This document shows positions 35,000 to 57,088 of a stretch of 64,000 bases of DNA, in pieces (positions within the stretch are counted from its first letter, which is position 1; every line of letters starts with the position of its first letter). This DNA is from a virus. The notes beneath the pieces were generated by a model that saw nothing but the letters and a program-made list of their open reading frames with translations, was not told where the DNA came from and ran no database searches. The position numbers and the translations under genes were made by a program. The DNA is taken from IMG/VR virus record IMGVR_UViG_3300012949_000670; one strand, 5' to 3'.

Positions 35000-37900
35000 A
35001 TGTGCGATATTTGCATTAAGGAGCATGTACAACTCCACAACCATACTGATAAATCAAATCTTGACGGTGTCCCTCCGGTAGAAAAGCTGGTCGAGTACGC
35101 TAAGGAAATGGGCGCAGTTGCCGTTGGCGTCACCGAACACGGCAATACCCTTTCCATGTATCCCTTCCTCGATGCCTGCAAACGGATTGGCGGTATCAAT
35201 CCGGTCATTGGCGTTGAGGCTTATATGATTTATGGCCCGTCCTATTTGAAAAAGTCTAAGTCTACCATTTTCACCCCAGACGAAATTGTGTCTGACCCGC
35301 TGTATGAAGAAATCTACGGGAAACTTCCACTGAACGGGATGAAGATGCACAATCACGTTCTCCTGCTGGCGCTGAACCAGAAAGGTGTGGAGAACATTAA
35401 CAAGATTGTGACGTTCTCGCACCGGCACTTTTATAGCAAACCGTCTCTGACTCACGCGTTTTTGCGCGACCACTCGGACGGCATTTTAGCAAGTTCTGGC
35501 TGTCTGGCAGCGGAAATCCCAACTCTGCTTAAGTTGGGCTATAAAGATGAAGCGGAACAGGTGTTGCAGTGGTATTTGAACATCTTCAAAGACCGATTCT
35601 TTATCGAGTTCCAGCGTCACGACATCCCGGAACTGGACGATACTGTCAACAATGGTCTTTTGGAGCTGGTCAAAAAGTATAAGGTGCCGGTAATCGCCAC
35701 AAACGATATTCACTATCTGCGCCCGGAAGATGAAGAAATCCAGCGCCTTCTGTTGAAAATTGCGACTGGCAACCGCAAGCAGAAGGAAAACGAGATTGAC
35801 GATTCTGGGGATGCAATGGTTTTCAACGGGAGTGGCTACCACTACGCCTCGCCAGACGAGATGTTCGAGAAGATGAGCGTTTATGGTGAGGATATTGCGA
35901 AGGACATGCTGAATAATACCGTTGCCATCGGCAAGGATGCAAAATATAACCCGATGGTCGGTGTTGGTTTCCACATGCCAAAGACGCACCCTGAATTGAC
36001 CGATGAACAGCTCAACGAAAAGTTCCGTGAACTGGTCTACAAGGGCGCAAAAGAACGCTACGGCGACCCGCTCCCGCAGGAAGTAATTGACCGCATTGAA
36101 TACGAGCTGGAAGTCATCATCGGCAAGAACCTGGTCGGTTACTTCATGATTCTGATTGACCTGATTGATTTCGCCAGAAAGAAGGGACGCATCTGGAATA
36201 TTCGTGGTAGCGGTGCGGGCTGCTGCTGTTTGTACTGTCTGCAAATCAGTCATACAGACCCCATCCGTCACAACCTGCTGTTCGAGCGTTTCCTGAACCC
36301 GGCGCGTGTCAATATGCCAGATGTCGATATTGACATCCCCGATACCTTCCGTGAACCGCTGGCGAAGTACCTGCAACAGCGTTACGGTGTGGATAAGGTC
36401 GCCCGGATTATGGCTTACGGCAAAATTAAGCTGAAGCTGGCTATCCAGGTCTCTGCCCGTATGTATGGTTTGAATCCGCAGGACGTGATTGCCCTGAGTA
36501 AGGCTGTCCCGAACCACTACAGCACAGTTGAAGAACTGGAAGAAGACCAGAACTTCATGCATCTGGCGATGCAGTTCAAGGACTATAAGGCTATTTTGGA
36601 TACTGCCCGCAAGGTCGTGAACCGGGAAAAAACACTTAGTATGCACCCGGCCGGCGTGCTGATTTTCGATAAGAGCCTGGACGAATACACCGGGCTGCAC
36701 CGCCTGACCAAAGTTGACAATTCAGAAGGCGATGACAGCGACAGCGATGATGCTGGCAGCTTTGCATCCCTGCTCCCGGCGCAGATGGATATGGGGGCGG
36801 CGGAAATGGGCGGCTTCGTGAAGTTCGACTTTTTGGGCGTCCGAAACCTTACCATCATCGAAGAAACGCTTCGCTATATCAAGCAGTTGACCGGGAAAGA
36901 AATCTCCTGGTACAGCATTCCAACCGAATATAGCGATGCCTACCAGGTCTATTGGAAGGGTGATAACATCGGCATTTTCCAGGTCAGTTCCGACCCGATG
37001 CGGGACGTGTTCAAACGGCTACAGCCGACCAACCTTGACCACATCACTGCTGTTATTTCGCTGTACCGCCCTGGCCCGATGCAGTACATCGATGACTATA
37101 TCGCCATGCACAAGGGCGAGGAAGAAGTCAACTACCCGTCAAAGGTTCTAGAGCCTATCCTGAAAGAGACTTACGGCATCATGGTCTATCAGGAACAGAT
37201 TATTCAGGTTCTCAAGCTGGCGGGTTTCTCCGGTGGTGACGCTGACCTTATCCGGCGCGCTATCTCGAAAAAAAAGCTGAAGGAAATCGTCAAGCACAAA
37301 GAAGAATTTATTCAGGGCATGATGCAGAAGTATCAGATGCCTGCTGCTGAGTGCGAACAGATTTGGGCAGACATCGAGAAGTTCGCCGGTTATGGTTTCA
37401 ACAAGTCTCATGCCAGCAGTTATGCCGAGGTTTCGACCCGCACAGCGTGGCTGAAAACTCATTACCGGCTTGCCTACCTTCTGGCGTCTCTGAACGTGGA
37501 AATTAAGCATAACGACAAGGTGCTGACTTATGTTGGGGATGCCCGCAAGTCTGGTATCAAAATCCTGCCCCCGGATGTGAATAAGAGTGAAGAACTGTTC
37601 ACGGTGGAAGGCAACAACATCCGTTACGGTCTTGCAGCCATCAAGCACGTGGCTACGGACAGTCTGGCGGCGCTGGTTGCCGAGCGCAAGGCAAACGGCA
37701 ACTTCAAGAGTATTGAAGATTTGCTGAACCGGGTGAACATTAATACTTCAACATTTGCGGCGCTTCTCCTGTCTGGGGCGCTTGACAGCATCATCCTTGC
37801 GGGCAAAGAAGGCGAAATCGTCAATCCTCGCTTGGATGGCTACAATCAGGTGCCAAAGAAGTTCCAGTGTTCTATCCGTAACCTTGCCGGGTTTGAAAAG

Positions 37901-38446
37901 AAAGGTCGAAAGAAAGAGAACGATGTAGAAGTTGTGACCGATGACCTGGCAATTGAAGGGATTGAGTCTGAAGAACCAGCGCCGAAAAAGAAGAAGGCAA
38001 AGAAGGAAGAAGAACCCATCCCTGTGCCGCAGAATTTTGCAGACTGGCTGAGGGGCGAGGCTAACGTCATCGGCGGCATTTTCGTCTCAACGCATCCGAT
38101 TCTGCTGTACCTGAAGGGGCGCAAACTTTCGCAGTGCTTCAACGTAGACAAGCCAGTTATCTTTGCGGATGCTCTGGAAAAAATGCCCGTGAATACAGAG
38201 TGCTACGTACTTGGTATTATTGAGGACATCTATCATAAGCTGGACAAAAACTGGCTATGGGTGTCGGTTATCGGTTTCAATAAACCATCCTACCGGCTGG
38301 CAGCTTTCCAGAACGTCAACAAACTGCTTCCACTCGCCAATGTGGACTACCTGTGTCTGTTCCGGGTGTCCCGGGGGAACAAGGGTTTCACGGTGAGCGA
38401 AATTCGCTCCATCGGAAACATTTATTCTTCGACCACCTACATCTAA
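35000..38446 (+). CDS. dnaE: DNA polymerase III alpha subunit
   Basis: PHP domain LHNHT...TEHG...GVEAY...NDIHY. RGSGAG, FERFLNP, PDVDID, SMHPAG, KFDFLG, YQEQI, YGFNKSH. Confidence 0.95.
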   Translation: MCDICIKEHVQLHNHTDKSNLDGVPPVEKLVEYAKEMGAVAVGVTEHGNTLSMYPFLDACKRIGGINPVIGVEAYMIYGPSYLKKSKSTIFTPDEIVSDPLYEEIYGKLPLNGMKMHNHVLLLALNQKGVENINKIVTFSHRHFYSKPSLTHAFLRDHSDGILASSGCLAAEIPTLLKLGYKDEAEQVLQWYLNIFKDRFFIEFQRHDIPELDDTVNNGLLELVKKYKVPVIATNDIHYLRPEDEEIQRLLLKIATGNRKQKENEIDDSGDAMVFNGSGYHYASPDEMFEKMSVYGEDIAKDMLNNTVAIGKDAKYNPMVGVGFHMPKTHPELTDEQLNEKFRELVYKGAKERYGDPLPQEVIDRIEYELEVIIGKNLVGYFMILIDLIDFARKKGRIWNIRGSGAGCCCLYCLQISHTDPIRHNLLFERFLNPARVNMPDVDIDIPDTFREPLAKYLQQRYGVDKVARIMAYGKIKLKLAIQVSARMYGLNPQDVIALSKAVPNHYSTVEELEEDQNFMHLAMQFKDYKAILDTARKVVNREKTLSMHPAGVLIFDKSLDEYTGLHRLTKVDNSEGDDSDSDDAGSFASLLPAQMDMGAAEMGGFVKFDFLGVRNLTIIEETLRYIKQLTGKEISWYSIPTEYSDAYQVYWKGDNIGIFQVSSDPMRDVFKRLQPTNLDHITAVISLYRPGPMQYIDDYIAMHKGEEEVNYPSKVLEPILKETYGIMVYQEQIIQVLKLAGFSGGDADLIRRAISKKKLKEIVKHKEEFIQGMMQKYQMPAAECEQIWADIEKFAGYGFNKSHASSYAEVSTRTAWLKTHYRLAYLLASLNVEIKHNDKVLTYVGDARKSGIKILPPDVNKSEELFTVEGNNIRYGLAAIKHVATDSLAALVAERKANGNFKSIEDLLNRVNINTSTFAALLLSGALDSIILAGKEGEIVNPRLDGYNQVPKKFQCSIRNLAGFEKKGRKKENDVEVVTDDLAIEGIESEEPAPKKKKAKKEEEPIPVPQNFADWLRGEANVIGGIFVSTHPILLYLKGRKLSQCFNVDKPVIFADALEKMPVNTECYVLGIIEDIYHKLDKNWLWVSVIGFNKPSYRLAAFQNVNKLLPLANVDYLCLFRVSRGNKGFTVSEIRSIGNIYSSTTYI

Positions 38447-44701: not shown

Positions 44702-46303
44702 ATGAGTCCGAAGATTATTTTTGTTACCGGTGGTGTGGTGAGTTCGGTAGGGAAGGGGGTTGCAGCCTCGTCTATTGCGAAACTGCTTCGCCAGCGGGGA
44801 TATAAAGTGTGTCTCCAAAAACTTGACCCTTATCTTAATGTAGACCCCGGAACGATGAGTCCATATCAACACGGCGAAGTTTTTGTCCTTGATGACGGTG
44901 CAGAAACCGATTTGGATTTAGGGCATTACGAGCGCTTGGGCGGCATCAGTTTGAACCGTTATTCATCGGTGTCCACCGGGCAGATTTATGAAGAAGTGCT
45001 TTCCAAAGAACGGCGGGGGGATTTTTTAGGCCGTACCATTCAAATCATCCCTCATATTACGAATGAAATCAAACGCCGCATTCGCATGGCGATTGAAACA
45101 ACCGGCGCAGATATTGGCATTGTCGAAATCGGCGGCACGGTTGGAGATATTGAATCTGAACCGTATCTGGAAGCGATTCGCCAGTTGCGTTTTGAACTTG
45201 GGCAGGAAAATACTTTTTATTGTCATCTGACATGGCTTCCATTCATCGGTGCGACCAGAGAACTCAAAACAAAGCCGACGCAGCATTCCGTCAGGATGCT
45301 GCGTTCAGTCGGTATCAGCCCGGACGCGTTGATTGCCCGTGCAGATTATTCCATTTCCAAAGAACTGCTGGACAAAATCAGCCAGTTTTGTGACGTTGAA
45401 CGCCGGGCGGTAATCGGTCTGGAAACCACGCAGTATATTTACGAAGTCCCCTTGATTATTGAAAAATCTGGTCTTGCCGATTACATCGTAGAAAAAATGA
45501 AGCTCCCCGGTTTTATCAAGCCCGACCTGTCGAATTGGGAACGGCTGGTTTCCTTGCTGAAACAGGATAAACCCAAAGCCCCGGTCGCACTGGTAGGTAA
45601 ATACGTCGAATTGCACGACTCCTATATTAGCGTGGCTGAGGCGTTATGCCATGCGGGGCTGGCAAATGGTATCGAAGTGGATATTCACTGGATTAGCGCC
45701 GTAGATTTGGAAAATGGCAAGTGTTTAGATGAGTTAGAAGAATGCGCCGGAATTATTATTCCGGGCGGCTTCGGTAATCGCGGTGTGGACGGGAAAATGC
45801 TGGCAATTGAGTACGCCCGTGAAAATAAAGTCCCGCTTCTCGGACTATGCTTAGGGATGCAGTTAATTTGCGTAGAATATGCCCGCAACGTACTTGGTCT
45901 TACTGAAGCCAATTCGACAGAATTTAATCCCAATACACCGTACCCGGTTATTGACCTGATGGAAGAACAAAAGATGGTGATGAATCTCGGCGGAACGATG
46001 CGGCTGGGTAGTTTCGACTGTAAATTGGTTTCCGGTTCAAAAGCCTACTGCGCATATGGTCGGGAAATTGTCCGGGAACGTCATCGCCACCGGTTTGAAT
46101 TAAATAACGAATACCGCCCATTGCTGGAAGAAAATGGGCTAAAGGTAACAGGCGCAAGCCCAAATGGGGTGCTGGCAGAAATCGTCGAAGTGGAAAATCA
46201 TCCTTTTTTGGTTGGTACGCAGTTCCATCCCGAATTTAAATCAAAGCTAGACGAACCGCACCCAATTTTTGTGGCTTTCGTGAAAAGCGTCATCGGCGCA
46301 TAA
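44702..46303 (+). CDS. pyrG: CTP synthase
   Basis: FVTGGVVSSVGKG, KLDPYLNVDPGTMSPYQHGEVFV, GLCLGMQ, RERHRHR, QFHPEF. Confidence 0.97.
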   Translation: MSPKIIFVTGGVVSSVGKGVAASSIAKLLRQRGYKVCLQKLDPYLNVDPGTMSPYQHGEVFVLDDGAETDLDLGHYERLGGISLNRYSSVSTGQIYEEVLSKERRGDFLGRTIQIIPHITNEIKRRIRMAIETTGADIGIVEIGGTVGDIESEPYLEAIRQLRFELGQENTFYCHLTWLPFIGATRELKTKPTQHSVRMLRSVGISPDALIARADYSISKELLDKISQFCDVERRAVIGLETTQYIYEVPLIIEKSGLADYIVEKMKLPGFIKPDLSNWERLVSLLKQDKPKAPVALVGKYVELHDSYISVAEALCHAGLANGIEVDIHWISAVDLENGKCLDELEECAGIIIPGGFGNRGVDGKMLAIEYARENKVPLLGLCLGMQLICVEYARNVLGLTEANSTEFNPNTPYPVIDLMEEQKMVMNLGGTMRLGSFDCKLVSGSKAYCAYGREIVRERHRHRFELNNEYRPLLEENGLKVTGASPNGVLAEIVEVENHPFLVGTQFHPEFKSKLDEPHPIFVAFVKSVIGA

Positions 46304-46316
46304 CTGAATAATCACT

Positions 46317-46364
46317 GTTAAATCAATAAATCCCTGCATATTCGCAGGGATTTATTGATTTAAC
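46317..46364. terminator. 21-bp perfect hairpin after pyrG
   Basis: GTTAAATCAATAAATCCCTGC / GCAGGGATTTATTGATTTAAC. Confidence 0.8.
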
Positions 46365-46459
46365 TGCATTTTTTTGCCGTTGATAGAATTTTTATTCTAT
46401 AAAATAAAAAGTATTTTAATAAAGAATGATTAAATGTGATTTTTTACGTTCGGTCGCTA

Positions 46460-46526
46460 TTGACTTATTTAAATAAGCCTGTAAAATACGGAGACACTGA
46501 CGTTTATACTAATTTGTATAAACGTC
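46460..46526 (+). promoter_or_regulatory. Sigma-70-like promoter and downstream operator-like palindrome for the AT-hook gene
   Basis: TTGACT-16 nt-TAAAAT, then GACGTTTATAC-6 nt-GTATAAACGTC. Confidence 0.55.
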
Positions 46527-46603
46527 CTAGATTTTTCCATTATATGAGTTTTATCAGGCAATTATCAGGATAATAATCGGTCTTGTGAAGGAGGAAAAAG
46601 GCA

Positions 46604-48220
46604 ATGCCCCCTAGAAAGAAAAAGGCGGTGGTTTCCGCCGAATTAATTGAACAATTTGCGGATGAACTCGCTCAAATTGAACCTGATAACCTTGTGCGAG
46701 AAACGCCAGAAACGGTTGTTGGAAGCACAGAACCAGCCCCCAGACGAGGAAGAAAGCCAAAACAGATAAAAGTAGAAGCTGCGCCGGAACTTGAGGATGC
46801 AGCGCCTACGCCTGTTGTGACAACGGTCAACCGGGCGGATGATGTTGCGTTAGCTGTTCAACAAGCAATTTCCAGCGTCCTGCCGACTGCGCTGGAACCG
46901 CTTATGAAGCCGCCGAAAGGACGCGGCCGGCCACAAAAAATTGAGCCAGAACGGATGGTTGCCGCGGTATCCAATGCCGTGACGACCGCCGTGACGACCG
47001 CAGTCGCACAGGTAATTCGGGATGTTCGCCCAACTGGTTCAACCGATGAATATCCTGTGCTGGAACCGGTTTCGCTGGCACAATCTTTGGTTGACCCTGT
47101 GACGGAAGTTGTTTCTGAAACTGTTTCTGCACCGACAACAGTTAAGCGGGGGAGAGGCCGGCCAAAAAAGGGTGAATCTCCTGTTCAATCCCTGTTAGTT
47201 GAAGCCCCACCGATACCAACGACAAGAAACAAAAAGGCGGATATTCAGCCGGTTGTTGTCGCAATTGAACAGCCTGTAGCTGAACCAGCGAAGCCGCGTA
47301 GAAGCAAGGAACAAAGAAAGGCTGTTAGTGTTCCCGTTCAGGAAGAGGCCTCGCAGTCGGAAGTAGTCGTTGGCGAAGCTATCGCAGATGCTCCGTCTAT
47401 TGCCATCCCGGAAGCAGCCGAAGAAGCCGTCAAAGCTCCATCAAAGCGTGGACGGCGGAAAAAGACGGTCGAAGCTGCTGCGCCGGTCGAGGTTACAGCG
47501 GAAGCACCGGTCTCCGAAGCACCTGTTGTTGAAGATGTAGCGCCGGTGAAAGCGGAAGCACCCGTTGTGAAAGCCCCGGCGAAAAAGCGCGGCCGTCCAA
47601 AGAAGGCGGCTGCCGCTGAAGCTGCCGAGCCGCAAGCTGTCGTGGTCGAGGCAGAAGTCCCGGTCGCTGAAACTCCGGTCGAAGAACCTGCAAAGCCGAA
47701 ACGCGGCAGGAAACCCAAAGCAGAATCTAAGGCCGCCGCCGAAGCGAAACCGTCCAAACGGGGGCGGAAACCGAAAGCTGAAGTAGCAGCAGAACCGGCG
47801 ACAGCCGAGGTCGAACTAACTGTGGGCGCTGCCGAGCCAGTGGAAGATGCCGTCAAACAACCTGTAAAGCGCAAGCGTGGAAGACCCAAAAAGGTGGCGG
47901 CTGAACCTACTGCCGAAGTTGAACAGACACCGACCGCCGTAGTTGGAGAAGCGCTCGCAACACCTGAAGTTGAAGAACAACCGGCACCAGCTCGCAAGCG
48001 TGGCAGAAAAAAGGCTGCGCCCGCTGAAGAAACAGTGGCGGAAGCACCGGCTGCTGAAGTCGAAGCCGTTGCTCAGCCCGTTGTCGAACAACCTGCGCCG
48101 CGCAAACGTGGCCGACCAAAAAAGGTACAGGTCGAAGAAGCCGTAGCGGCGGTTGAAGAACAGCCCAGCGAAGAAGCTACTCCGAAGCGTAAGCGCGGTC
48201 GACCAAAGAAAAGCGAGTAG
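46604..48220 (+). CDS. Multi-AT-hook, HMGA-like disordered DNA-binding protein
   Basis: 11 RGR(P/K/R) motifs, 6 of them RGRP, in E/A/V/P-rich spacers. Confidence 0.75.
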   Translation: MPPRKKKAVVSAELIEQFADELAQIEPDNLVRETPETVVGSTEPAPRRGRKPKQIKVEAAPELEDAAPTPVVTTVNRADDVALAVQQAISSVLPTALEPLMKPPKGRGRPQKIEPERMVAAVSNAVTTAVTTAVAQVIRDVRPTGSTDEYPVLEPVSLAQSLVDPVTEVVSETVSAPTTVKRGRGRPKKGESPVQSLLVEAPPIPTTRNKKADIQPVVVAIEQPVAEPAKPRRSKEQRKAVSVPVQEEASQSEVVVGEAIADAPSIAIPEAAEEAVKAPSKRGRRKKTVEAAAPVEVTAEAPVSEAPVVEDVAPVKAEAPVVKAPAKKRGRPKKAAAAEAAEPQAVVVEAEVPVAETPVEEPAKPKRGRKPKAESKAAAEAKPSKRGRKPKAEVAAEPATAEVELTVGAAEPVEDAVKQPVKRKRGRPKKVAAEPTAEVEQTPTAVVGEALATPEVEEQPAPARKRGRKKAAPAEETVAEAPAAEVEAVAQPVVEQPAPRKRGRPKKVQVEEAVAAVEEQPSEEATPKRKRGRPKKSE

Positions 48221-48337
48221 TTCATTCCTTGATTGCACGAACCGGGGAACGACTTTGTTCCCCGGTTTTTGTGTTTAATTTCTTGCAATTCGTCATAAAA
48301 ATAGTGAATTTGTTCTATTTATATTGAGGGGGACTGG

Positions 48338-49540
48338 ATGAATTGTAGGTATTGTACTGAAAAAACGAATGACCAAACCCGGCAAGAAGGTGGTATTGAA
48401 GTCCAGCGGGGGACAGAGATTAACGTACTCAATTTGAAAAATCCAATTTTGGAACGCAATCATTTTCCAGATGAATGGAACAGGTATATTGATTGGTTGG
48501 ATGCAAACTCTGTTACTTATTCTGGAATGCACACCATCAAAGCTGTCATGATGAAACGCAAGGCGGCGCACCGGGATTATTCATCGGCGGATAGCTGGCT
48601 CAGTTTATTGCGGCAGTGGTCGGATAGATACGCCAAAGAAACTGGAAATCCAAAGCTGTCCTTTATGGAACTGGCGCAGCTAGCCATGTATTTTGAAAAG
48701 CGTATGCTTGATGAAATTGAAAAAGGGGACGAATCAGAGTTTTTCAAGCTCCAAAATCAATCTTCACCAGCACCGTCTCAGCTCGCTATGCAAAACGTCC
48801 AAACATCACAAATGGTAAGGAATGTCGTGTTATCAAAGCTAAAAGGACAGCTCAACGAAAAGCCTCGCATTTTAGAACCGACTGCTGGAGATAGCGCACT
48901 GGCAAAGTGGCTGGTTTCCGATTATCCAAAAGCGAAGCTGGATGCCATTGATGCCGATAAAAACCGACAAAATGAACTGCGTCAAATGGGATACAATCCG
49001 GCAGGGGAAGATTTTCTTTCTTTTATCCCGCACAAAGCCTACGATGCAGTCGTAATGAATACAGCCGGAAATCCGCAAACCTATGCAGCGCAGGTTGTCC
49101 ACGGATTTGACATTCTCGCTCCGTCCGGCACGCTGGTGGCGATTGTGCCTGAAAATATTCAAGACCTGACTAAAAGCATTTCGGCGGGGAAAATGAACGC
49201 CGGAGATACGGAACGGCTACGGAAGTTTATTTACCAGTACGGGAAATTAGAACGTCTGATAACCGGCGAAAACGAAAGTCATTACATTCTTGTATTGACC
49301 AAACCCAAATGTCATCGTGGGCGCAGAAAAAAAGGTGAGGTTCGGGAAATTACGCTGGTCGCAAAGGGAACAGGGAAACGAGGCCGGCCGCGTATTCGCC
49401 CACTCCCGGATGAAAATCAGCCCAAACGGAAACGAGGCCGCCCGCGCATCCATCCACTTCCAGATGAAAATCAACCGAAGCGCAAGCGGGGGCGACCACC
49501 GGGCAGCAAAAACAAAAAGGTCGCTGCATTTGAAGCCTGA
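48338..49540 (+). CDS. Degenerate class I methyltransferase-like protein with an AT-hook tail
   Basis: ILEPTAGDSALA, GEDFL, DAVVMNTAG (in place of NPPF), GTLVAIVP. Three C-terminal RGRP motifs. Confidence 0.65.
   Translation: MNCRYCTEKTNDQTRQEGGIEVQRGTEINVLNLKNPILERNHFPDEWNRYIDWLDANSVTYSGMHTIKAVMMKRKAAHRDYSSADSWLSLLRQWSDRYAKETGNPKLSFMELAQLAMYFEKRMLDEIEKGDESEFFKLQNQSSPAPSQLAMQNVQTSQMVRNVVLSKLKGQLNEKPRILEPTAGDSALAKWLVSDYPKAKLDAIDADKNRQNELRQMGYNPAGEDFLSFIPHKAYDAVVMNTAGNPQTYAAQVVHGFDILAPSGTLVAIVPENIQDLTKSISAGKMNAGDTERLRKFIYQYGKLERLITGENESHYILVLTKPKCHRGRRKKGEVREITLVAKGTGKRGRPRIRPLPDENQPKRKRGRPRIHPLPDENQPKRKRGRPPGSKNKKVAAFEA
49379..49486 (+). repeat. Two 54-bp coding repeats (RGRPRI[R/H]PLPDENQPKRK)
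   Basis: Identical peptide apart from R/H, with synonymous nucleotide divergence. Confidence 0.85.
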
Positions 49541-49579
49541 TATAACCAAAAAGCCAGTTGTCTGGCTTTTTGGTTATAT
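49540..49579. terminator. Bidirectional terminator
   Basis: TATAACCAAAAAGCCAG / CTGGCTTTTTGGTTATA. Confidence 0.8.
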
Positions 49580-49643
49580 TTTTGACTAATTCAATGGGTT
49601 TTCGTGGTTTATATCCGGCAAACCAGAAGAGCGATGTTGCTTT

Positions 49644-50276
49644 TTATTGGTGCTTTAGGACGTGGAATTCATTTAATGGATAGTAAACCAGCAGGCCTTT
49701 GCCAATAATCTTTTTGGCGGATACCGAACCAAACGAATGGGAATCGGCTGAAAAATTCCGATTATCCCCGAGGACGAAATAATACCCTTCAGGAACGAAC
49801 CATTCACCGGCATAGCTTATCTCTTCTGGAAGATAGGCTTCTGGATAAAGAACCCCGTTGATATATACTGCTCCATTTTCGATTTTGATATTCTCACCAG
49901 GAAGTCCAATAATCCGTTTGACCAGCGCCTTTTCGGAAGTTTGCGGGTGGTGCAGAACAACTATATCGCCACGTTCAAACCTTTTTTCTCGAAATGCCAT
50001 CTTGTCTACCAAAAGCAACTGCCCGTTTTTTAGGGTAGGGGACATACTTTCGCCGTAGACTTCCACTCGCACCGTAAATACATTGGCCGCGAGATAAAAC
50101 AAAACCAGAATCAAAATCGTCGGAAGCCATTCCTTTAAAAAATTTGCCAGACGTTTTTTGAAAGGGATTGGCTCTGGTTGAAGTTCCGACTCGTTTTTCA
50201 CAGTTGTTTCTATCATCTCGATTTTATCCTGCCTATCTATATCAAAATTTGTTTTTACCAATCGTTCTTTCGTCAT
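49644..50276 (-). CDS. lepB: Signal peptidase I (S26)
   Basis: GESMSPTL, GDIVV, LVKRIIGLPG, GDNRNFSADS. Confidence 0.93.
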   Translation of the reverse strand: MTKERLVKTNFDIDRQDKIEMIETTVKNESELQPEPIPFKKRLANFLKEWLPTILILVLFYLAANVFTVRVEVYGESMSPTLKNGQLLLVDKMAFREKRFERGDIVVLHHPQTSEKALVKRIIGLPGENIKIENGAVYINGVLYPEAYLPEEISYAGEWFVPEGYYFVLGDNRNFSADSHSFGSVSAKKIIGKGLLVYYPLNEFHVLKHQ

Positions 50277-54271: not shown

Positions 54272-57088
54272 TTATTGGGCTTTTGCCTTGCGCCCACGCT
54301 TCGCCGGGGCTTCGGCTTTGCCTTTTTCGGGAGCGGTTTTGCGCTTCGGCTTTTCATCGGTTGCCGGGGCTTCCGCCTTTGCCTTGCGCCCACGCTTTGT
54401 GGGCTGTTCCGGCCGTGCTTCCGCAGCGGGCTTGCGCCCACGCTTAGTCGTCTTTTCTACTGGGGCTTCTGCCTTCTTTTTAGAAGTGGTGGGCGACTTG
54501 GAAGATGCTGCCTTTTTACCCTTTGTGGGTGCCGGTGTATCTTCCGCCTTCGCGGTTTTTCGCTTGGTGGCCGGCTTCGTCTCCTGAACAGGGGCATCAC
54601 CGGCAGGGACAACGGCGATAAAGGCGACCTTTTCACCGCCGAACAGCCCGTCAAATTTCGCGGAAATATTTTCGCCGTTCTTGGAGCGGGGCTGTTCGGG
54701 GATGTCTGTGACACGGATGCGAAGCCGCTTGCCTTTTTCTGAGACCAAATCCAGCATATCGCCTTCATTGGCAACGGCATAAGCAACCGGGAGACCGGAC
54801 TGTTTTGTCGGCTTCATGGTCATTACGCCCTGTCCAGCCCGCCCCTGCACCGGGAACTCATCCAGTTTGACAAGCTTTGCAAAGCCGTTCTCTGTCACGA
54901 CAACCAGGTAGCCGTTGGTGTACTGGTCGGGGTTGAAGCAAACGCCGCCCAAAACCGGGTCGCCGTCGCGCATCTTGATGCCCGTTACACCCTTTGCGCT
55001 GGCGCTGACCACCGGGTTTACCGTGTCTGTCTCAAAGCGCAGGGCGCGTGGGTCAGCCTTCTGCATATTGCCCTGCGTGAAAAACATCGTATGGGTCGGC
55101 TTATCCGCCAGTGTCGCGAAGATGACCTCATCTTTGTCATCCGCCAGACCGATGACCGCCCCCCACGAACCTTCACTGCGGGATGAAGTGGCATCTGCCA
55201 GCTTGATGCGCTTGACGTTCCCGTTGCGAGTGCCGATGGTCAGGTAAGCTTCCGGGTCTGCCTTCATACCAGCCAGCAGCGTTTCGCCCTTATCTAAGCC
55301 TAAATCAGCATGAGAGCTGGTGTTCGGCAGTCTGCCGACATTACCAAACCACAGGCGTCCACGATTGCTAATCAGCACCACATTATCAGTAGGTTCAACG
55401 ACAAAGCGGGAAGTCACAACCTCAACCGCTCGGGCGCTTACCTTGCCGGGCTGAACGGTATCTTTATAGGTATCCGCATCTGCCCGCTGAATACCGCTGG
55501 TAGTCAGAACAACCATCTGCGGCTTTTCAGGGACAAGCAAATCCGCGACCGTAACCGTCTCCTTATGTCCGTTCTCGTTCTCCACGATGATAGTTTTGCG
55601 GGGAGTCGGGTATTTTGCGTTGATTTCCTTCATGTCTTCGATGATGAGAGATAGACGCTTGGCTTCTGAGCCGATAATCTCGTTCAGTTCCTTGATTTTT
55701 GCCAGCAGTTCCTTCTTTTCTTCTTTCAGCTTGTTGACCTCAAGGCTGACGAGACGGCGGAGCTGCATGTCAAGGATTGCCTGTGCCTGGACATCATCCA
55801 GACCGAGCAGCTTTTTCAGTTTTGTTTTAGCGGTATCAGTATCCTTCGACCCGCGAATGATGGCGACCACTTCGTCGATTTTTGCCAGCGCCGCCAGCAG
55901 AGCTTCCACGATATGAAGCCGCTTTTCCGCCTTATCTTTGTCAAAGCGGGCGCGGCGGGTAATCACCACCAGACGGTGCTTGATGAAGGCAACCAGCAGT
56001 GCCTTGAGGGACATCACCTCGGGATACATATTGCCTTCATCGTCGATGTTCAACGCTAGATGGTTGACAGATAGTGTGGTGCGCAGGTTTGTGTTAGTGA
56101 ACAGGGCATTCAGGGCTTCCTGCGGGTCGCAGCCGCGCGCCACATCGAACACGATGCGCATACCTTCCTGGTCGGACTCATCGGAAACGTCCGTGATTTT
56201 GCCAGCCAGCTTGTCCTTGACCTTCGCCACGCGTTCCAAAATCGTACCTTTCGAGATGCCGTAGGGGATTTCGGTGATGACGATTTTGGTGCGCCCGTTT
56301 TTCTCAATGTCGGCCTTAGCCTGACAGACCAGCGGAGAATAACCGGTCTCGTAGGCTTCCCGAATCATGTCCATCGAAACACCGGTCTTCTCATCCTTGC
56401 GGTAGCGGTAAATCAGTCCGCCCGTAGGAAGGTCAGGGCCGGGGATGATTTTCATCAGGTCGTCCACTGTGATTTTGTCGAGGTTTTTCCAGTTGGACGC
56501 CAGATAGATGACCGCATCACAGACTTCGTTGAGATTGTGGGGCAGGATGTCGGTGGACATACCGACTGCAATACCAGTTGTGCCGTTTACCAGCAGGTTG
56601 GGGAAGCGGGCGGGCAGGACAACCGGTTCTTTCAGCGTCCCGTCAAAGTTTTCAATGAAGTCAACCGTATCGCGGTCAATTTCATTCAGCATCAGCGCAC
56701 CGAACTCGCTCAATTTTGCTTCGGTATAGCGCATAGCCGCCGCACCGTCACCATCGATAGAGCCGAAGTTTCCCTGTCCGATGACCAGCGGCACACCCAT
56801 CGCCCAATCCTGTGCCAAACGCACCAGCGCACCGTATACCGAGGAATCACCGTGCGGGTGGTATTTACCCAGCACTTCACCCACGATACGGGCGCATTTC
56901 AAGGTTTTGGCATTGGGCAGCAGGTTCAGCTCACCCATTGCATACAACACTCGGCGGTGAACGGGCTTCAAGCCGTCACGAGCGTCAGGAATTGCACGGT
57001 CAAGGATGGTCTTTTCCGCATAAGTGACCATCCATTTTTCAATTCTTTCACCAATATCCTGTTTTACAATCGTTCTTATGTCTGCCAT
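54272..57088 (-). CDS. gyrA: Type IIA topoisomerase subunit A (GyrA/ParC) with a basic KRGRK tail
   Basis: RAIPDARDGLKPVHRR, YHPHGDSSVY, AAAMRYTE, FPNLLVNG. No recognisable GyrA box. Confidence 0.9.
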   Translation of the reverse strand: MADIRTIVKQDIGERIEKWMVTYAEKTILDRAIPDARDGLKPVHRRVLYAMGELNLLPNAKTLKCARIVGEVLGKYHPHGDSSVYGALVRLAQDWAMGVPLVIGQGNFGSIDGDGAAAMRYTEAKLSEFGALMLNEIDRDTVDFIENFDGTLKEPVVLPARFPNLLVNGTTGIAVGMSTDILPHNLNEVCDAVIYLASNWKNLDKITVDDLMKIIPGPDLPTGGLIYRYRKDEKTGVSMDMIREAYETGYSPLVCQAKADIEKNGRTKIVITEIPYGISKGTILERVAKVKDKLAGKITDVSDESDQEGMRIVFDVARGCDPQEALNALFTNTNLRTTLSVNHLALNIDDEGNMYPEVMSLKALLVAFIKHRLVVITRRARFDKDKAEKRLHIVEALLAALAKIDEVVAIIRGSKDTDTAKTKLKKLLGLDDVQAQAILDMQLRRLVSLEVNKLKEEKKELLAKIKELNEIIGSEAKRLSLIIEDMKEINAKYPTPRKTIIVENENGHKETVTVADLLVPEKPQMVVLTTSGIQRADADTYKDTVQPGKVSARAVEVVTSRFVVEPTDNVVLISNRGRLWFGNVGRLPNTSSHADLGLDKGETLLAGMKADPEAYLTIGTRNGNVKRIKLADATSSRSEGSWGAVIGLADDKDEVIFATLADKPTHTMFFTQGNMQKADPRALRFETDTVNPVVSASAKGVTGIKMRDGDPVLGGVCFNPDQYTNGYLVVVTENGFAKLVKLDEFPVQGRAGQGVMTMKPTKQSGLPVAYAVANEGDMLDLVSEKGKRLRIRVTDIPEQPRSKNGENISAKFDGLFGGEKVAFIAVVPAGDAPVQETKPATKRKTAKAEDTPAPTKGKKAASSKSPTTSKKKAEAPVEKTTKRGRKPAAEARPEQPTKRGRKAKAEAPATDEKPKRKTAPEKGKAEAPAKRGRKAKAQ

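What the first reader, a model, noticed from the sequence alone, without database searches (positions are those of the whole stretch)
46604..48220. HMGA-like protein with 11 AT-hook-type motifs: candidate element-specific chromatin
Seen: a 538-aa protein with no evident globular domain, carrying 11 RGR motifs (6 RGRP) in acidic E/A/V/P spacers, and its own promoter and palindromic operator. Known: AT-hooks (RGRP) bind the AT-rich minor groove in eukaryotic HMGA and in a few bacterial proteins such as Myxococcus CarD. Inference: a nucleoid-organising or silencing protein for the element, forming a set with the hook-tailed pseudo-methyltransferase and topoisomerase.
Basis: partly seen in the sequence, partly recalled or inferred. 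Interest (0 to 1): 0.75.

Follow-up and report, generated by a model that had tools for sequence, protein, structure and literature searches.

The report
Eleven-AT-hook disordered protein, giant element
A giant extrachromosomal-type DNA element, probably living in an Anaerolineae (Chloroflexota) bacterium, encodes an orphan 538-residue floppy protein with eleven AT-hook-type DNA-gripping motifs separated by acidic spacers. It most likely binds and organises AT-rich DNA, but nothing about its function has been tested.

Summary
ORF 46604-48220(+) encodes 538 aa with 11 separate RGR motifs, 6 of them RGRP. Shuffles of the protein's own residues give a mean of 0.1 and a maximum of 3 in 20,000. Twelve of the 19 glycines sit inside RGR, and the hooks use varied synonymous codons. 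Three hooks pass Pfam's AT_hook cut-off when scanned alone.

About 80% of the chain is predicted disordered. Only residues 77-175 form helices, at moderate confidence. Each hook (+4 to +7) follows a spacer that is acidic (-4 to -7) in ten of eleven cases.

The gene has a promoter-like site, a perfect 11-bp-arm palindrome, a strong RBS and terminators on both sides. The 300 bp upstream are the most AT-rich stretch of the window (28% GC).

The protein is an orphan. An exhaustive HMMER search of 1.84 billion proteins returned five hits, all through the hooks alone. No match was found in phage or plasmid records or in the Anaerolineae genomes searched.

Best reading: a multivalent minor-groove binder acting as architectural or silencing protein of the element. 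It is HMGA-like in mechanism but not an HMGA, CarD, H-NS or Lsr2 family member. Hook tails on the neighbouring degenerate methyltransferase and on GyrA are confirmed.

This scan has noted AT-hooks in other prokaryotic proteins, which tempers the novelty.

The parts
46300..46599 (.). AT-rich upstream region (28% GC, 23 tracts of 5 or more A/T). It is the most AT-rich 300-bp stretch of the 64-kb window and a candidate binding or nucleation site for the protein's own hooks.
46317..46364 (+). Perfect 21-bp-arm hairpin followed by a T run. It is the terminator of the upstream pyrG gene and isolates the hook gene as its own transcription unit.
46460..46487 (+). Sigma-70-type promoter-like site, TTGACT-16 nt-TAAAAT (10 of 12 matches).
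46499..46526 (+). Palindrome GACGTTTATAC-TAATTT-GTATAAACGTC with perfect 11-bp arms, starting 12 nt after the -10 hexamer and unique in the window. It is either an operator for a dimeric regulator or a 5'-leader hairpin.
46587..46594 (+). Shine-Dalgarno GAAGGAGG, 9 nt before the ATG.
46604..48220 (+). CDS of the 538-aa multi-AT-hook protein (P0001). RGR cores lie at residues 48, 107, 184 (in RGRGR), 282, 329, 367, 386, 425, 466, 502 and 531.
46832..47128 (+). Residues 77-175: three predicted helices (77-101, 115-141, 155-175; pLDDT 70-84). This is the only candidate structured or interaction region. Hook 107 sits in the loop between the first two helices.
47444..48211 (+). Residues 281-536: dense C-terminal array of eight hooks (4 KRGRPKK, 2 KRGRKPK, KRGRRKK, KRGRKK) separated by 12-39-residue A/V/E/P spacers, seven of them acidic. 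Predicted disordered.
48239..48268 (+). Intrinsic-terminator-like hairpin (13 pairs, 7 of them GC) followed by a T run. It ends the monocistronic unit.
49337..49537 (+). Hook tail (RGRRKK plus 3 RGRP) of the neighbouring 400-aa methyltransferase-like protein P0002 (CDS 48338-49540).
54275..54631 (-). Basic K/A/P/E-rich C-terminal tail of the element's GyrA (CDS 54272-57088) with three KRGRK motifs.

Best explanation
P0001 is a real, separately transcribed gene of a giant (about 370-400 kb) extrachromosomal-type element.

**The protein.** It is an intrinsically disordered polyampholyte with eleven AT-hook-type peptides. Six are canonical RGRP hooks. Five are RGRK/RGRR variants; three of those (RGRKP) place the proline as in the H-NS (Q/R)GRTP motif.

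[quoted passage not shown] Eleven weak sites on one flexible chain give high avidity for DNA where A/T tracts are clustered. In this element that means intergenic and promoter regions, and most of all the gene's own upstream region.

The 12-91-residue linkers let neighbouring hooks reach tracts tens of base pairs apart, or on a second duplex. The protein would therefore coat, bend or bridge AT-rich DNA, acting as an architectural or silencing nucleoid-associated protein of the element and probably autoregulating.

The acidic spacers nearly neutralise the hooks (net charge +8 over 538 aa). Like the acidic region of HMGA and CarD, they would damp non-specific binding.

**What is shown and what is inferred.** Shown here: gene reality, motif identity and enrichment, predicted disorder, charge pattern, AT-tract distribution, and orphan status. 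Inferred: DNA binding, AT preference, bridging or silencing, and autoregulation.
For: **Motif statistics.** 12 overlapping RGR against a shuffle mean of 0.10 and maximum of 3 in 20,000. 12 of 19 Gly lie in RGR. The DNA pattern for KRGRPK occurs 4 times in this gene against 0.01 expected in the window.

**Hooks kept at peptide level.** The Arg and Gly positions use six different Arg codons and all four Gly codons, and no tandem DNA repeat with a period above 12 bp is present. This points to maintenance of the peptide, not recent DNA duplication.

**Pfam AT_hook.** Three isolated hooks pass the cut-off and a fourth is within 0.1 bit.

**Mechanism from the literature.**
- The RGR core lies deep in the AT-rich minor groove, with a GRP core flanked by K/R (PMC11354804).
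- H-NS and Lsr2 use Q/RGR, and the H-NS motif is TW(S/T)G(Q/R)GRTP (PMC4466236).
- Multiple hooks plus an acidic region is the HMGA/CarD hallmark (PMC2919716).

**Structure and localisation.** Residues ~180-538 are predicted disordered. The best 19-residue hydropathy window is 1.35, so no transmembrane helix is evident.

**Target availability.** A/T tracts of 6 or more occur at 27 per kb in non-coding DNA against 9 per kb in coding DNA. Coding GC is 49% and non-coding 40%. The gene's own upstream 300 bp is the most AT-rich stretch of the window.

**Expression signals and frame.**

**Same motif on two other DNA-acting proteins within 10 kb.**

**Element context.** The element carries a divergent replisome (DnaE about 34% identical to its best phage and plasmid hits), T4SS-type ATPases, gyrase, DnaG and a RecJ-like gene, and S21.
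Against: - No experiment exists, and no orthologue gives a conservation test. All four cluster members are at least 99% identical.
- The whole protein does not score against PF02178 even at E 10.
- Five of the eleven motifs lack the GRP core and do not match the model.
- The protein is nearly charge-neutral, unlike strongly basic histone-like proteins. The acidic spacers could weaken DNA binding.
- The element is only moderately AT-rich (about 48% GC).
- 'Element-specific' cannot be distinguished from action on host DNA.
Circularity and host are not demonstrated.
Confidence: 0.55

Rival explanations
1. Recruitment hub rather than general chromatin. The N-terminal helical region (residues 77-175) docks a specific partner, such as RNA polymerase or sigma, gyrase, or a partition or replication protein. 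The hooks tether that partner to AT-rich promoter or origin DNA, as CarD and HMGA do in nucleoprotein complexes.
For: This is the only part of the chain with predicted structure. CarD combines a protein-interaction domain with an HMGA-like hook region (PMC2919716). The hook tails on GyrA and on the methyltransferase-like protein show that this element uses hooks to tether enzymes.
Against: Eleven hooks spread over 490 residues are far more than a tether needs. No CarD_TRCF domain or other interaction domain was detected. The helices are of moderate confidence and have no homologues.
Confidence: 0.15
2. Host-directed factor. The protein binds AT-rich regions of the host chromosome, or competes with host nucleoid proteins or silencers, to protect or establish the element. 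It would be an anti-silencer or nucleoid-takeover protein, not packaging for the element itself.
For: Mobile elements commonly encode their own versions of AT-binding nucleoid proteins that modulate silencing (titles and abstracts of PMC7074111, PMC11796372 and PMC9023278). The same minor-groove chemistry would compete with any host AT-binder.
Against: The host and its nucleoid proteins are unknown. The strongest candidate target seen is on the element itself, in the gene's own upstream region. The sequence gives no way to separate self from host targets.
Confidence: 0.1
3. Transferred establishment protein. The protein travels with the DNA through the element's type IV secretion-like machine, using its positively charged C-terminus, and coats or protects the incoming DNA in the recipient.
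For: T4SS-type ATPases (VirB4/TraG-like, T2SSE/VirB11-like) lie in the same window. The chain ends in KRKRGRPKKSE. From general knowledge, several T4SS substrates carry Arg-rich C-terminal signals.
Against: AT-hooks bind double-stranded DNA in the minor groove, whereas conjugation transfers single-stranded DNA. The gene is 20 kb from the T4SS genes and has its own promoter. No relaxase link or known signal motif was tested.
Confidence: 0.07
4. RNA-binding or condensate scaffold. The RGR motifs within a blocky polyampholyte act like RG/RGG or extended AT-hooks on RNA, or drive phase separation without sequence-selective DNA binding.
For: Alternating +6/-6 charge blocks in a disordered chain. 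Extended AT-hooks have been described as a non-canonical variant (PMC11354804).
Against: Six motifs have the full canonical KRGRPKK form and three pass the DNA-type AT_hook model. There are no RGG repeats and no aromatic residues to act as stickers (1 F and 1 Y in 538 aa).
Confidence: 0.07
5. Not a functional gene: a chance low-complexity ORF or a decaying remnant.
For: No homologues. Low-complexity composition. A 219-aa shadow ORF lies on the opposite strand.
Against: Only the annotated frame has positive codon log-likelihood. The gene has a strong RBS, a promoter-like site and flanking terminators. The motif enrichment cannot come from composition alone. The 538-aa ORF is intact in all variants from several samples.
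Confidence: 0.03

Closest known systems
Eukaryotic HMGA1/HMGA2 (HMG-I/Y)
   Same: Intrinsically disordered. Multiple AT-hooks of the KRGRPKK / KRGRGRPKK type (hook 184 of P0001 nearly copies the RGRGRP form). Combined with acidic sequence. The predicted mechanism, minor-groove binding to A/T tracts, is the same (PMC11354804, PMC2919716).
   Different: HMGA proteins have 3 hooks (PMC11354804) and one flanking acidic region (PMC2919716), and are small (about 100 aa by general knowledge). P0001 has 538 aa, 11 hooks, and acidic spacers between nearly every pair of hooks. There is no homology beyond the motif. It is encoded by a bacterial mobile element.
Myxococcus xanthus CarD (HMGA-like C-terminal domain)
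   Same: A bacterial protein with four AT-hooks next to a highly acidic region, shown to behave like HMGA1a (PMC2919716).
   Different: CarD has an N-terminal CarD_TRCF (PF02559) domain that binds CarG. P0001 has no such domain, nearly three times as many hooks, and is not chromosomal.
Xenogeneic silencers H-NS and Lsr2, and their plasmid or phage-borne copies (Sfx, Sfh, phage Lsr2)
   Same: They recognise the AT-rich minor groove through a Q/RGR 'AT-hook-like' motif. The RGRKP variants in P0001 place Pro as in H-NS (Q/R)GRTP (PMC4466236). Mobile elements encode their own copies (PMC11796372, PMC7074111). The proposed role (coat, bridge or silence AT-rich DNA) is the same.
   Different: H-NS and Lsr2 have one motif inside a folded DNA-binding domain, plus a defined oligomerisation domain. 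Multivalency comes from oligomerisation. P0001 has no PF00816 or Lsr2 match and achieves multivalency within a single disordered chain.
Uncharacterised bacterial multi-hook tails found here: P0020 (TatB-like anchor + 6 hooks), the L002 ORF (Clostridia MAG, 840 aa, membrane anchor + coiled coil + about 13 hooks), P0022 (Bacteroidia, 10 x PAKRGRKPKA)
   Same: The same architecture of KRGRP(K/R)K or KRGRKPK hooks spaced by 10-45-residue A/E/V/P spacers. P0020 aligns at 39% identity over 252 residues, including the spacer pattern.
   Different: Two of the three (P0020 and the L002 ORF) sit among ordinary chromosomal genes, and all three are fused to an anchor or another terminal region. P0001 stands alone, has no membrane anchor, and lies on a giant element. 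The similarity may be convergent low-complexity similarity rather than descent.
Giant extrachromosomal elements such as Inocles (about 350 kb, oral Streptococcus)
   Same: The replicon class looks alike: contigs of hundreds of kb carrying DNA polymerase III alpha, gyrase, RecJ and stress or sigma-type genes (PMC12340149).
   Different: Inocles have 24-32% GC and Streptococcus hosts. This element has about 48% GC, and its pyrG is closest to Anaerolineae. My term search of that paper did not include AT-hooks, so I cannot say whether Inocles encode such a protein.

Membership tests
AT-hook motif (Pfam PF02178 / canonical GRP-core hook) | GRP core preceded by R and flanked by K/R residues. | tested here: met
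   Six RGRP sites at residues 107, 184, 329, 425, 502 and 531. The flanks are KRGRPKK in four of them.
AT-hook motif (Pfam PF02178 / canonical GRP-core hook) | Score at or above the curated Pfam cut-off (17.4 bits). | tested here: inconclusive
   The whole protein gives no hit even at E 10. Isolated 22-mers score 19.4, 19.8 and 20.2 (pass), 17.3 and 13.8 (fail). The five RGRK/RGRR sites and hook 107 give no hit. The C-terminal half scores 17.4.
AT-hook motif (Pfam PF02178 / canonical GRP-core hook) | [quoted passage not shown] | not testable with these tools
   Needs EMSA or footprinting.
HMGA family | Small protein (about 100 aa by general knowledge) with three hooks and one flanking acidic region; eukaryotic descent. 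| tested here: not met
   538 aa, 11 hooks, acidic spacers interleaved. HMMER matches to eukaryote-like proteins run only through the hook repeats.
CarD (HMGA-type bacterial regulator) | N-terminal CarD_TRCF domain (PF02559) joined to the hook region. | tested here: not met
   No Pfam family for P0001 or for residues 1-260.
H-NS / Lsr2 xenogeneic silencers | Folded C-terminal DNA-binding domain carrying a single Q/RGR motif (PF00816 or the Lsr2 fold). | tested here: not met
   No Pfam hit. The hook region is predicted disordered.
H-NS / Lsr2 xenogeneic silencers | N-terminal oligomerisation domain. | not testable with these tools
   Helices 77-175 are predicted at moderate confidence, but self-association cannot be established computationally for an orphan sequence.
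Histone H1-like / AlgP / Hc1-type lysine-rich bacterial proteins | Strongly basic K/A/P-rich repeats with a large net positive charge. | tested here: not met
   90 K+R against 82 D+E, net +8. E is 13% of residues.

The most novel reading that the evidence does not exclude
The three hook-bearing proteins form a private chromatin system of the giant element. They are the stand-alone 11-hook polyampholyte, the catalytically degenerate methyltransferase-like protein and the hook-tailed GyrA. The multivalent, charge-blocky protein would condense the element's AT-rich intergenic DNA into a distinct domain or condensate. That domain would concentrate the element's own topoisomerase and methyl-site reader and shield the element from host silencers or defence. 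This would be a bacterial, element-encoded analogue of HMGA-based chromatin hubs built entirely from a disordered chain.
Probability: 0.15. Interest if true: 0.8.

Novelty: new variant of a known kind. Interest (0 to 1): 0.5.

Why it matters
AT-hook and AT-hook-like motifs are a known way to read AT-rich DNA (HMGA, CarD, WhiB7, H-NS, Lsr2). Mobile elements are known to carry their own H-NS or Lsr2 copies.

What is new here is the solution. Known element-borne silencers are folded domains that oligomerise. This giant element carries a single orphan, almost fully disordered chain with eleven hooks and charge-matched acidic spacers, and it puts hook tails on its gyrase and on a degenerate methyltransferase.

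If DNA binding is confirmed, this would be a simple, portable model for how multivalency and charge patterning set DNA selectivity in a bacterial setting. It would also be a first handle on how giant extrachromosomal elements of uncultured Chloroflexota organise or silence several hundred kb of DNA.

The case is limited by the lack of any orthologue or experiment, and by the fact that hook-bearing prokaryotic proteins are turning out to be fairly common.

Tried and rejected
**Homologue searches**
- The word-indexed search of 5.8 billion proteins found only the protein's own cluster, 4 members at 99% identity or more.
- The exhaustive HMMER search of 1.84 billion representatives gave 5 other hits, all hook-only.
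- tblastn against phage and plasmid records gave no match, with the low-complexity filter on.
- Megablast of the neighbourhood against plasmids and phages gave no match.
- The ESM Atlas and PDB sequence searches gave nothing usable.

**Attempts to find diverged relatives of the element for a synteny test**
- P0002 against viral contigs: none.
- P0002 homologue search: hook-tail matches only.
- GyrA against metagenome contigs: none.
- pyrG homologues turned out to be Anaerolineae chromosomal genes, not element relatives.

**Genome searches**
- PF02178 as a genome-search family is useless. It missed even the positive-control genome.
- The protein query of residues 260-538 over 151 genomes of the class gave nothing, but had no positive control.

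**Self-association**
- A homodimer prediction for residues 70-180 returned 'no verdict'. It is not evidence either way.

**Taxon of P0020's genome**
- Not resolved. A P0020 scan found nothing. A neighbouring ABC permease gave mixed Bacillota and Actinomycetota hits.

**Other**
- No fold search was run on the N-terminal model, because pLDDT was too low for matches to mean anything.
- A membrane-anchor reading is rejected (hydropathy maximum 1.35).
- Recent tandem duplication as the origin of the hooks is rejected. No DNA repeat has a period above 12 bp, and the codons vary. Weak protein-level repeat similarity does remain.
- No whole genome is held for this window.
Full report
**1. What is there**

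The window holds an intact ORF at 46604-48220(+) of 538 codons. It has 11 separate RGR tripeptides. The count is 12 if the RGRGR at residue 182 is counted twice. Six are followed by Pro.

The composition is A 17%, V 14%, E 13%, P 12.5%, K 9.5% and R 7%. There is one Phe, one Tyr and no Trp, Cys or His.

Shuffling the protein's own residues 20,000 times gave a mean of 0.10 RGR and never more than 3. Twelve of its 19 glycines are inside RGR. The degenerate DNA pattern for K-R-G-R-P-K occurs four times in this gene and nowhere else in the 64 kb, against 0.01 expected.

The hooks are written with six different Arg codons and all four Gly codons. Tandem Repeats Finder sees only trivial repeats of 9-12 bp. 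The motif is therefore kept at the peptide level and is not a recent DNA duplication. Weak protein-level similarity between successive hook-plus-spacer modules remains.

Only the annotated frame has a positive codon log-likelihood against the window's identifiable genes (+0.25; the other five frames score -0.15 to -0.68). The 219-aa ORF on the opposite strand is therefore a compositional shadow.

**2. Anatomy of the protein**

No Pfam, NCBIfam, PHROG or PDB sequence match exists for the whole chain. AlphaFold2, run without an alignment because none can be made, gives mean pLDDT 46. Everything after about residue 180 is modelled as coil. Helices at 12-23, 77-101, 115-141 and 155-175 appear, the last three at pLDDT 70-84. 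Folding residues 1-200 alone gives the same picture. The most hydrophobic 19-residue window scores 1.35 on the Kyte-Doolittle scale, so there is no convincing membrane anchor.

The charge pattern is regular. Every hook segment carries +4 to +7, and ten of the eleven spacers carry -4 to -7. The whole chain is nearly neutral, with 90 K+R against 82 D+E. Spacers are 45-91 residues in the N-terminal half and 12-39 residues in the C-terminal array of eight hooks (residues 281-536).

**3. Are they AT-hooks?**

The literature defines the motif as a GRP core flanked by K/R, with consensus TPKRPRGRPKK. The RGR core lies deep in the AT-rich minor groove (PMC11354804).

- Four hooks here read KRGRPKK, one reads KRGRGRPKK and one reads KGRGRPQK.
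- The full protein does not score against PF02178, probably because of HMMER's composition filters.
- Scanned as isolated 22-mers, hooks 329, 425 and 502 score 19.4, 19.8 and 20.2 bits against a cut-off of 17.4. Hook 531 scores 17.3 and hook 184 scores 13.8.
- The C-terminal half as a whole scores exactly 17.4.
- The other five motifs (RGRKPK three times, RGRRKK, RGRKK) do not match the model.
- In the RGRKP variants, Pro sits where it does in the H-NS motif TW(S/T)G(Q/R)GRTP. H-NS and Lsr2 insert that Q/RGR 'AT-hook-like' element into the minor groove (PMC4466236).
- In a Bacteroidia protein with ten PAKRGRKPKA repeats (P0022), Pfam aligns that repeat to the H-NS C-terminal model.

So about half of the sites are canonical hooks and the rest are plausible prokaryote-style variants.

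**4. The gene as a unit**

- A perfect 21-bp-arm hairpin with a T run (46317-46364) ends the upstream pyrG gene.
- A promoter-like TTGACT-16-TAAAAT sits at 46460-46487.
- A palindrome with perfect 11-bp arms (46499-46526) starts 12 nt after the -10 hexamer and is unique in the window.
- GAAGGAGG lies 9 nt before the ATG.
- A GC-rich hairpin with a T run (48239-48268) follows the stop codon.

Folded as RNA, the leader forms the palindrome hairpin. In the minimum-energy structure it also pairs a U-rich tract with the GGAGG of the RBS (z = -2.4). The palindrome may therefore be a protein operator or a leader hairpin, and the sequence alone cannot decide.

The 300 bp upstream of the gene are the most AT-rich 300-bp stretch in the whole window. 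They have 28% GC and 23 tracts of five or more A/T. That makes them the best candidate target for the protein's own hooks and suggests autoregulation, which is inference.

**5. Context**

The window carries:
- a divergent DnaE, about 34% identical to the best phage or plasmid hits;
- GyrA, GyrB, DnaG and a RecJ-like DHH protein;
- a helicase, a ParA/TadZ-like ATPase, a T2SSE/VirB11-type ATPase, a VirB4/TraG-type ATPase and M23 peptidases;
- an N6/N4 DNA methylase, DnaJ, signal peptidase I and CTP synthase;
- ribosomal protein S21.

It has no tRNA and no Rfam match. Many ORFs have no family.

The protein is recorded on contigs of up to 367-400 kb from several sources. No whole genome is held for the window. 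The pyrG next door is 62-65% identical to CTP synthases of Leptolinea, Longilinea and Anaerolineales. The replisome genes are far from anything.

Together this fits a giant extrachromosomal-type element in an Anaerolineae host. In gene content it is comparable to the recently described Inocles, but it has 48% GC against their 24-32% (PMC12340149). Circularity and host are not shown. A very reduced cellular genome is not strictly excluded.

Two further DNA-acting proteins within 10 kb carry the same motif.
- The 400-aa P0002 has a methyltransferase-like core at residues about 144-278, where NTAG stands in place of the NPPY-type motif (read). Its tail carries RGRRKK plus three RGRP.
- GyrA ends in a roughly 115-residue K/A/P/E tail with three KRGRK.

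**6. Is it a routine host gene?**

The exhaustive HMMER search of 1.84 billion cluster representatives gave five hits at E < 0.001, all through the hook array. Three look eukaryotic. One (P0020) has a TatB-like anchor followed by six RRGRPRKT hooks and lies beside tatA among ordinary chromosomal genes. One is P0022.

A scan of species-representative genomes found one relative. It is an 840-aa membrane-anchored coiled-coil protein with about 13 hooks, in a rabbit-gut Clostridia MAG, beside alanine racemase and lipoteichoic-acid-synthase-like genes.

The KRGRPK DNA pattern was searched in 401 genomes of the class that contains a Leptolinea MAG.
- It occurred at the level of the reversed-pattern control, 0-4 per genome.
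- No two of the 150 listed matches lay near each other on one contig. A further 64 matches were not listed.
- The positive-control genome gave three hits in one gene.
- One of the 401 genomes (G350) is flagged unpublished. It showed one background match and the conclusion does not depend on it.

Multi-hook arrays with acidic A/E/V/P spacers are therefore a sporadic, recurrent bacterial architecture, usually as tails on anchored proteins. A stand-alone protein like P0001 was not found in the likely host class with these queries. The pattern is narrow: it misses RRGRPR-type hooks. This is 'not found in those searched', not 'absent'.

Notes from this scan list some 25 other AT-hook findings in prokaryotes, including RpoA tails in Patescibacteria, TadZ-like scaffolds in Clostridia and an archaeal multi-hook protein. 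That lowers the surprise of hooks as such.

**7. Mechanism proposed**

Established knowledge is that an RGR(P) core in a basic context binds the minor groove of 4-6 bp A/T tracts weakly, and that several hooks on one chain bind cooperatively to spaced tracts. Applied here, eleven hooks on a flexible chain should give strong avidity for DNA with clustered A/T tracts.

In this element such tracts are three times denser in non-coding than in coding DNA (27 against 9 per kb for tracts of 6 or more). A spacer of about 30 residues can span roughly 10-35 bp, or reach a second duplex, so coating, bending and bridging are all possible.

The acidic spacers would compete intramolecularly with DNA for the hooks. 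This sharpens selectivity, as proposed for the acidic regions of HMGA and CarD. They also give the blocky charge pattern typical of condensate-forming polyampholytes. The helical region 77-175 may mediate self-association or partner binding, but this could not be tested.

I rate DNA binding through the hooks at about 0.75, and the specific role as the element's architectural or silencing protein at about 0.45-0.55. The rival readings are a recruitment hub, a host-directed anti-silencer, a protein transferred through the T4SS, an RNA or condensate scaffold, and a non-gene. They are listed with their tests in the Rival explanations section.

**8. Comparison and novelty**

Functionally the protein is HMGA/CarD-like (hooks plus acidic sequence, disorder). 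In proposed role it resembles the H-NS and Lsr2 copies carried by plasmids and phages. It fails the membership tests for all of these families:
- no CarD_TRCF domain;
- no H-NS or Lsr2 fold;
- wrong size and layout for HMGA;
- not basic enough for H1/AlgP-type proteins.

It is best called a new variant of a known kind: an orphan, stand-alone, multivalent AT-hook protein of a giant element.

Interest is moderate. The anatomy is striking and directly testable in vitro. But the motif is known, hooks are proving common in prokaryotes, and there is neither an orthologue nor an experiment.

Noticed in passing
window 48338-49540 (+): P0002 is a 400-aa protein with a class-I methyltransferase-like core at residues about 144-278 (PHROG DNA-methyltransferase families; weak NCBIfam methyltransferase hit). 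It has a LEPTAGDS motif I, but NTAG stands where an NPPY-type catalytic motif would be. Its tail has two near-identical KRKRGRPRIHPLPDENQP units. The same 'KRKRGRPRIHPLP' hook unit is repeated up to about 10 times in an unrelated protein family (P0010, P0013, P0015), found on a 294-kb contig full of small unknown co-oriented genes.
   Followed up: partly
window 54275-54631 (-): The element's GyrA carries a basic K/A/P/E-rich C-terminal tail of about 115 residues with three KRGRK motifs. By general knowledge the E. coli GyrA tail is acidic. Whether the basic tail is typical of Anaerolineae GyrA was not checked.
   Followed up: no
window about 49540-49650: Gene orientation flips here: + strand genes run up to P0002 and - strand genes start from the signal peptidase. 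Cumulative GC skew peaks at about 50 kb. This could be a convergence or terminus-like point of the replicon, and the hook gene lies about 1.5 kb from it.
   Followed up: no
window 46494-46612 (+): In the predicted 5' leader, the tract after the palindrome hairpin pairs with the GGAGG of the RBS (MFE -27.8 kcal/mol, z = -2.4). This is possible translational control of the hook gene.
   Followed up: partly
L003:6001-7401 (+): P0020 has a TatA/TatB-like N-terminal membrane helix followed by an acidic region and six RRGRPRKT AT-hooks. It is encoded right after a tatA gene in a chromosomal context, so it may tether the membrane Tat component to DNA. The taxon of the assembly (GCA_037975375.1) was not resolved.
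   Followed up: partly
L002:4183-6705 (+): An 840-aa protein of an uncultured rabbit-gut Clostridia MAG has N-terminal membrane helices, a long coiled coil, a poly-acidic stretch and then about 13 KRGRPKK-type hooks. It is a candidate membrane-to-nucleoid tether.
   Followed up: no
proteins P0009, P0012, P0016, P0017: Several DDE transposases (PF01609) of about 570-620 aa matched the P0002 hook tail. Transposases with AT-hook extensions therefore seem to exist in metagenomes.
   Followed up: no
window 35000-38446 (+) and 44702-46303 (+): There is a strong contrast in divergence. The element's DnaE is only about 34% identical to its best phage and plasmid hits. The adjacent-region pyrG is 62-65% identical to Anaerolineae CTP synthases, consistent with a host-derived pyrG on an old, independent replicon.
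   Followed up: partly
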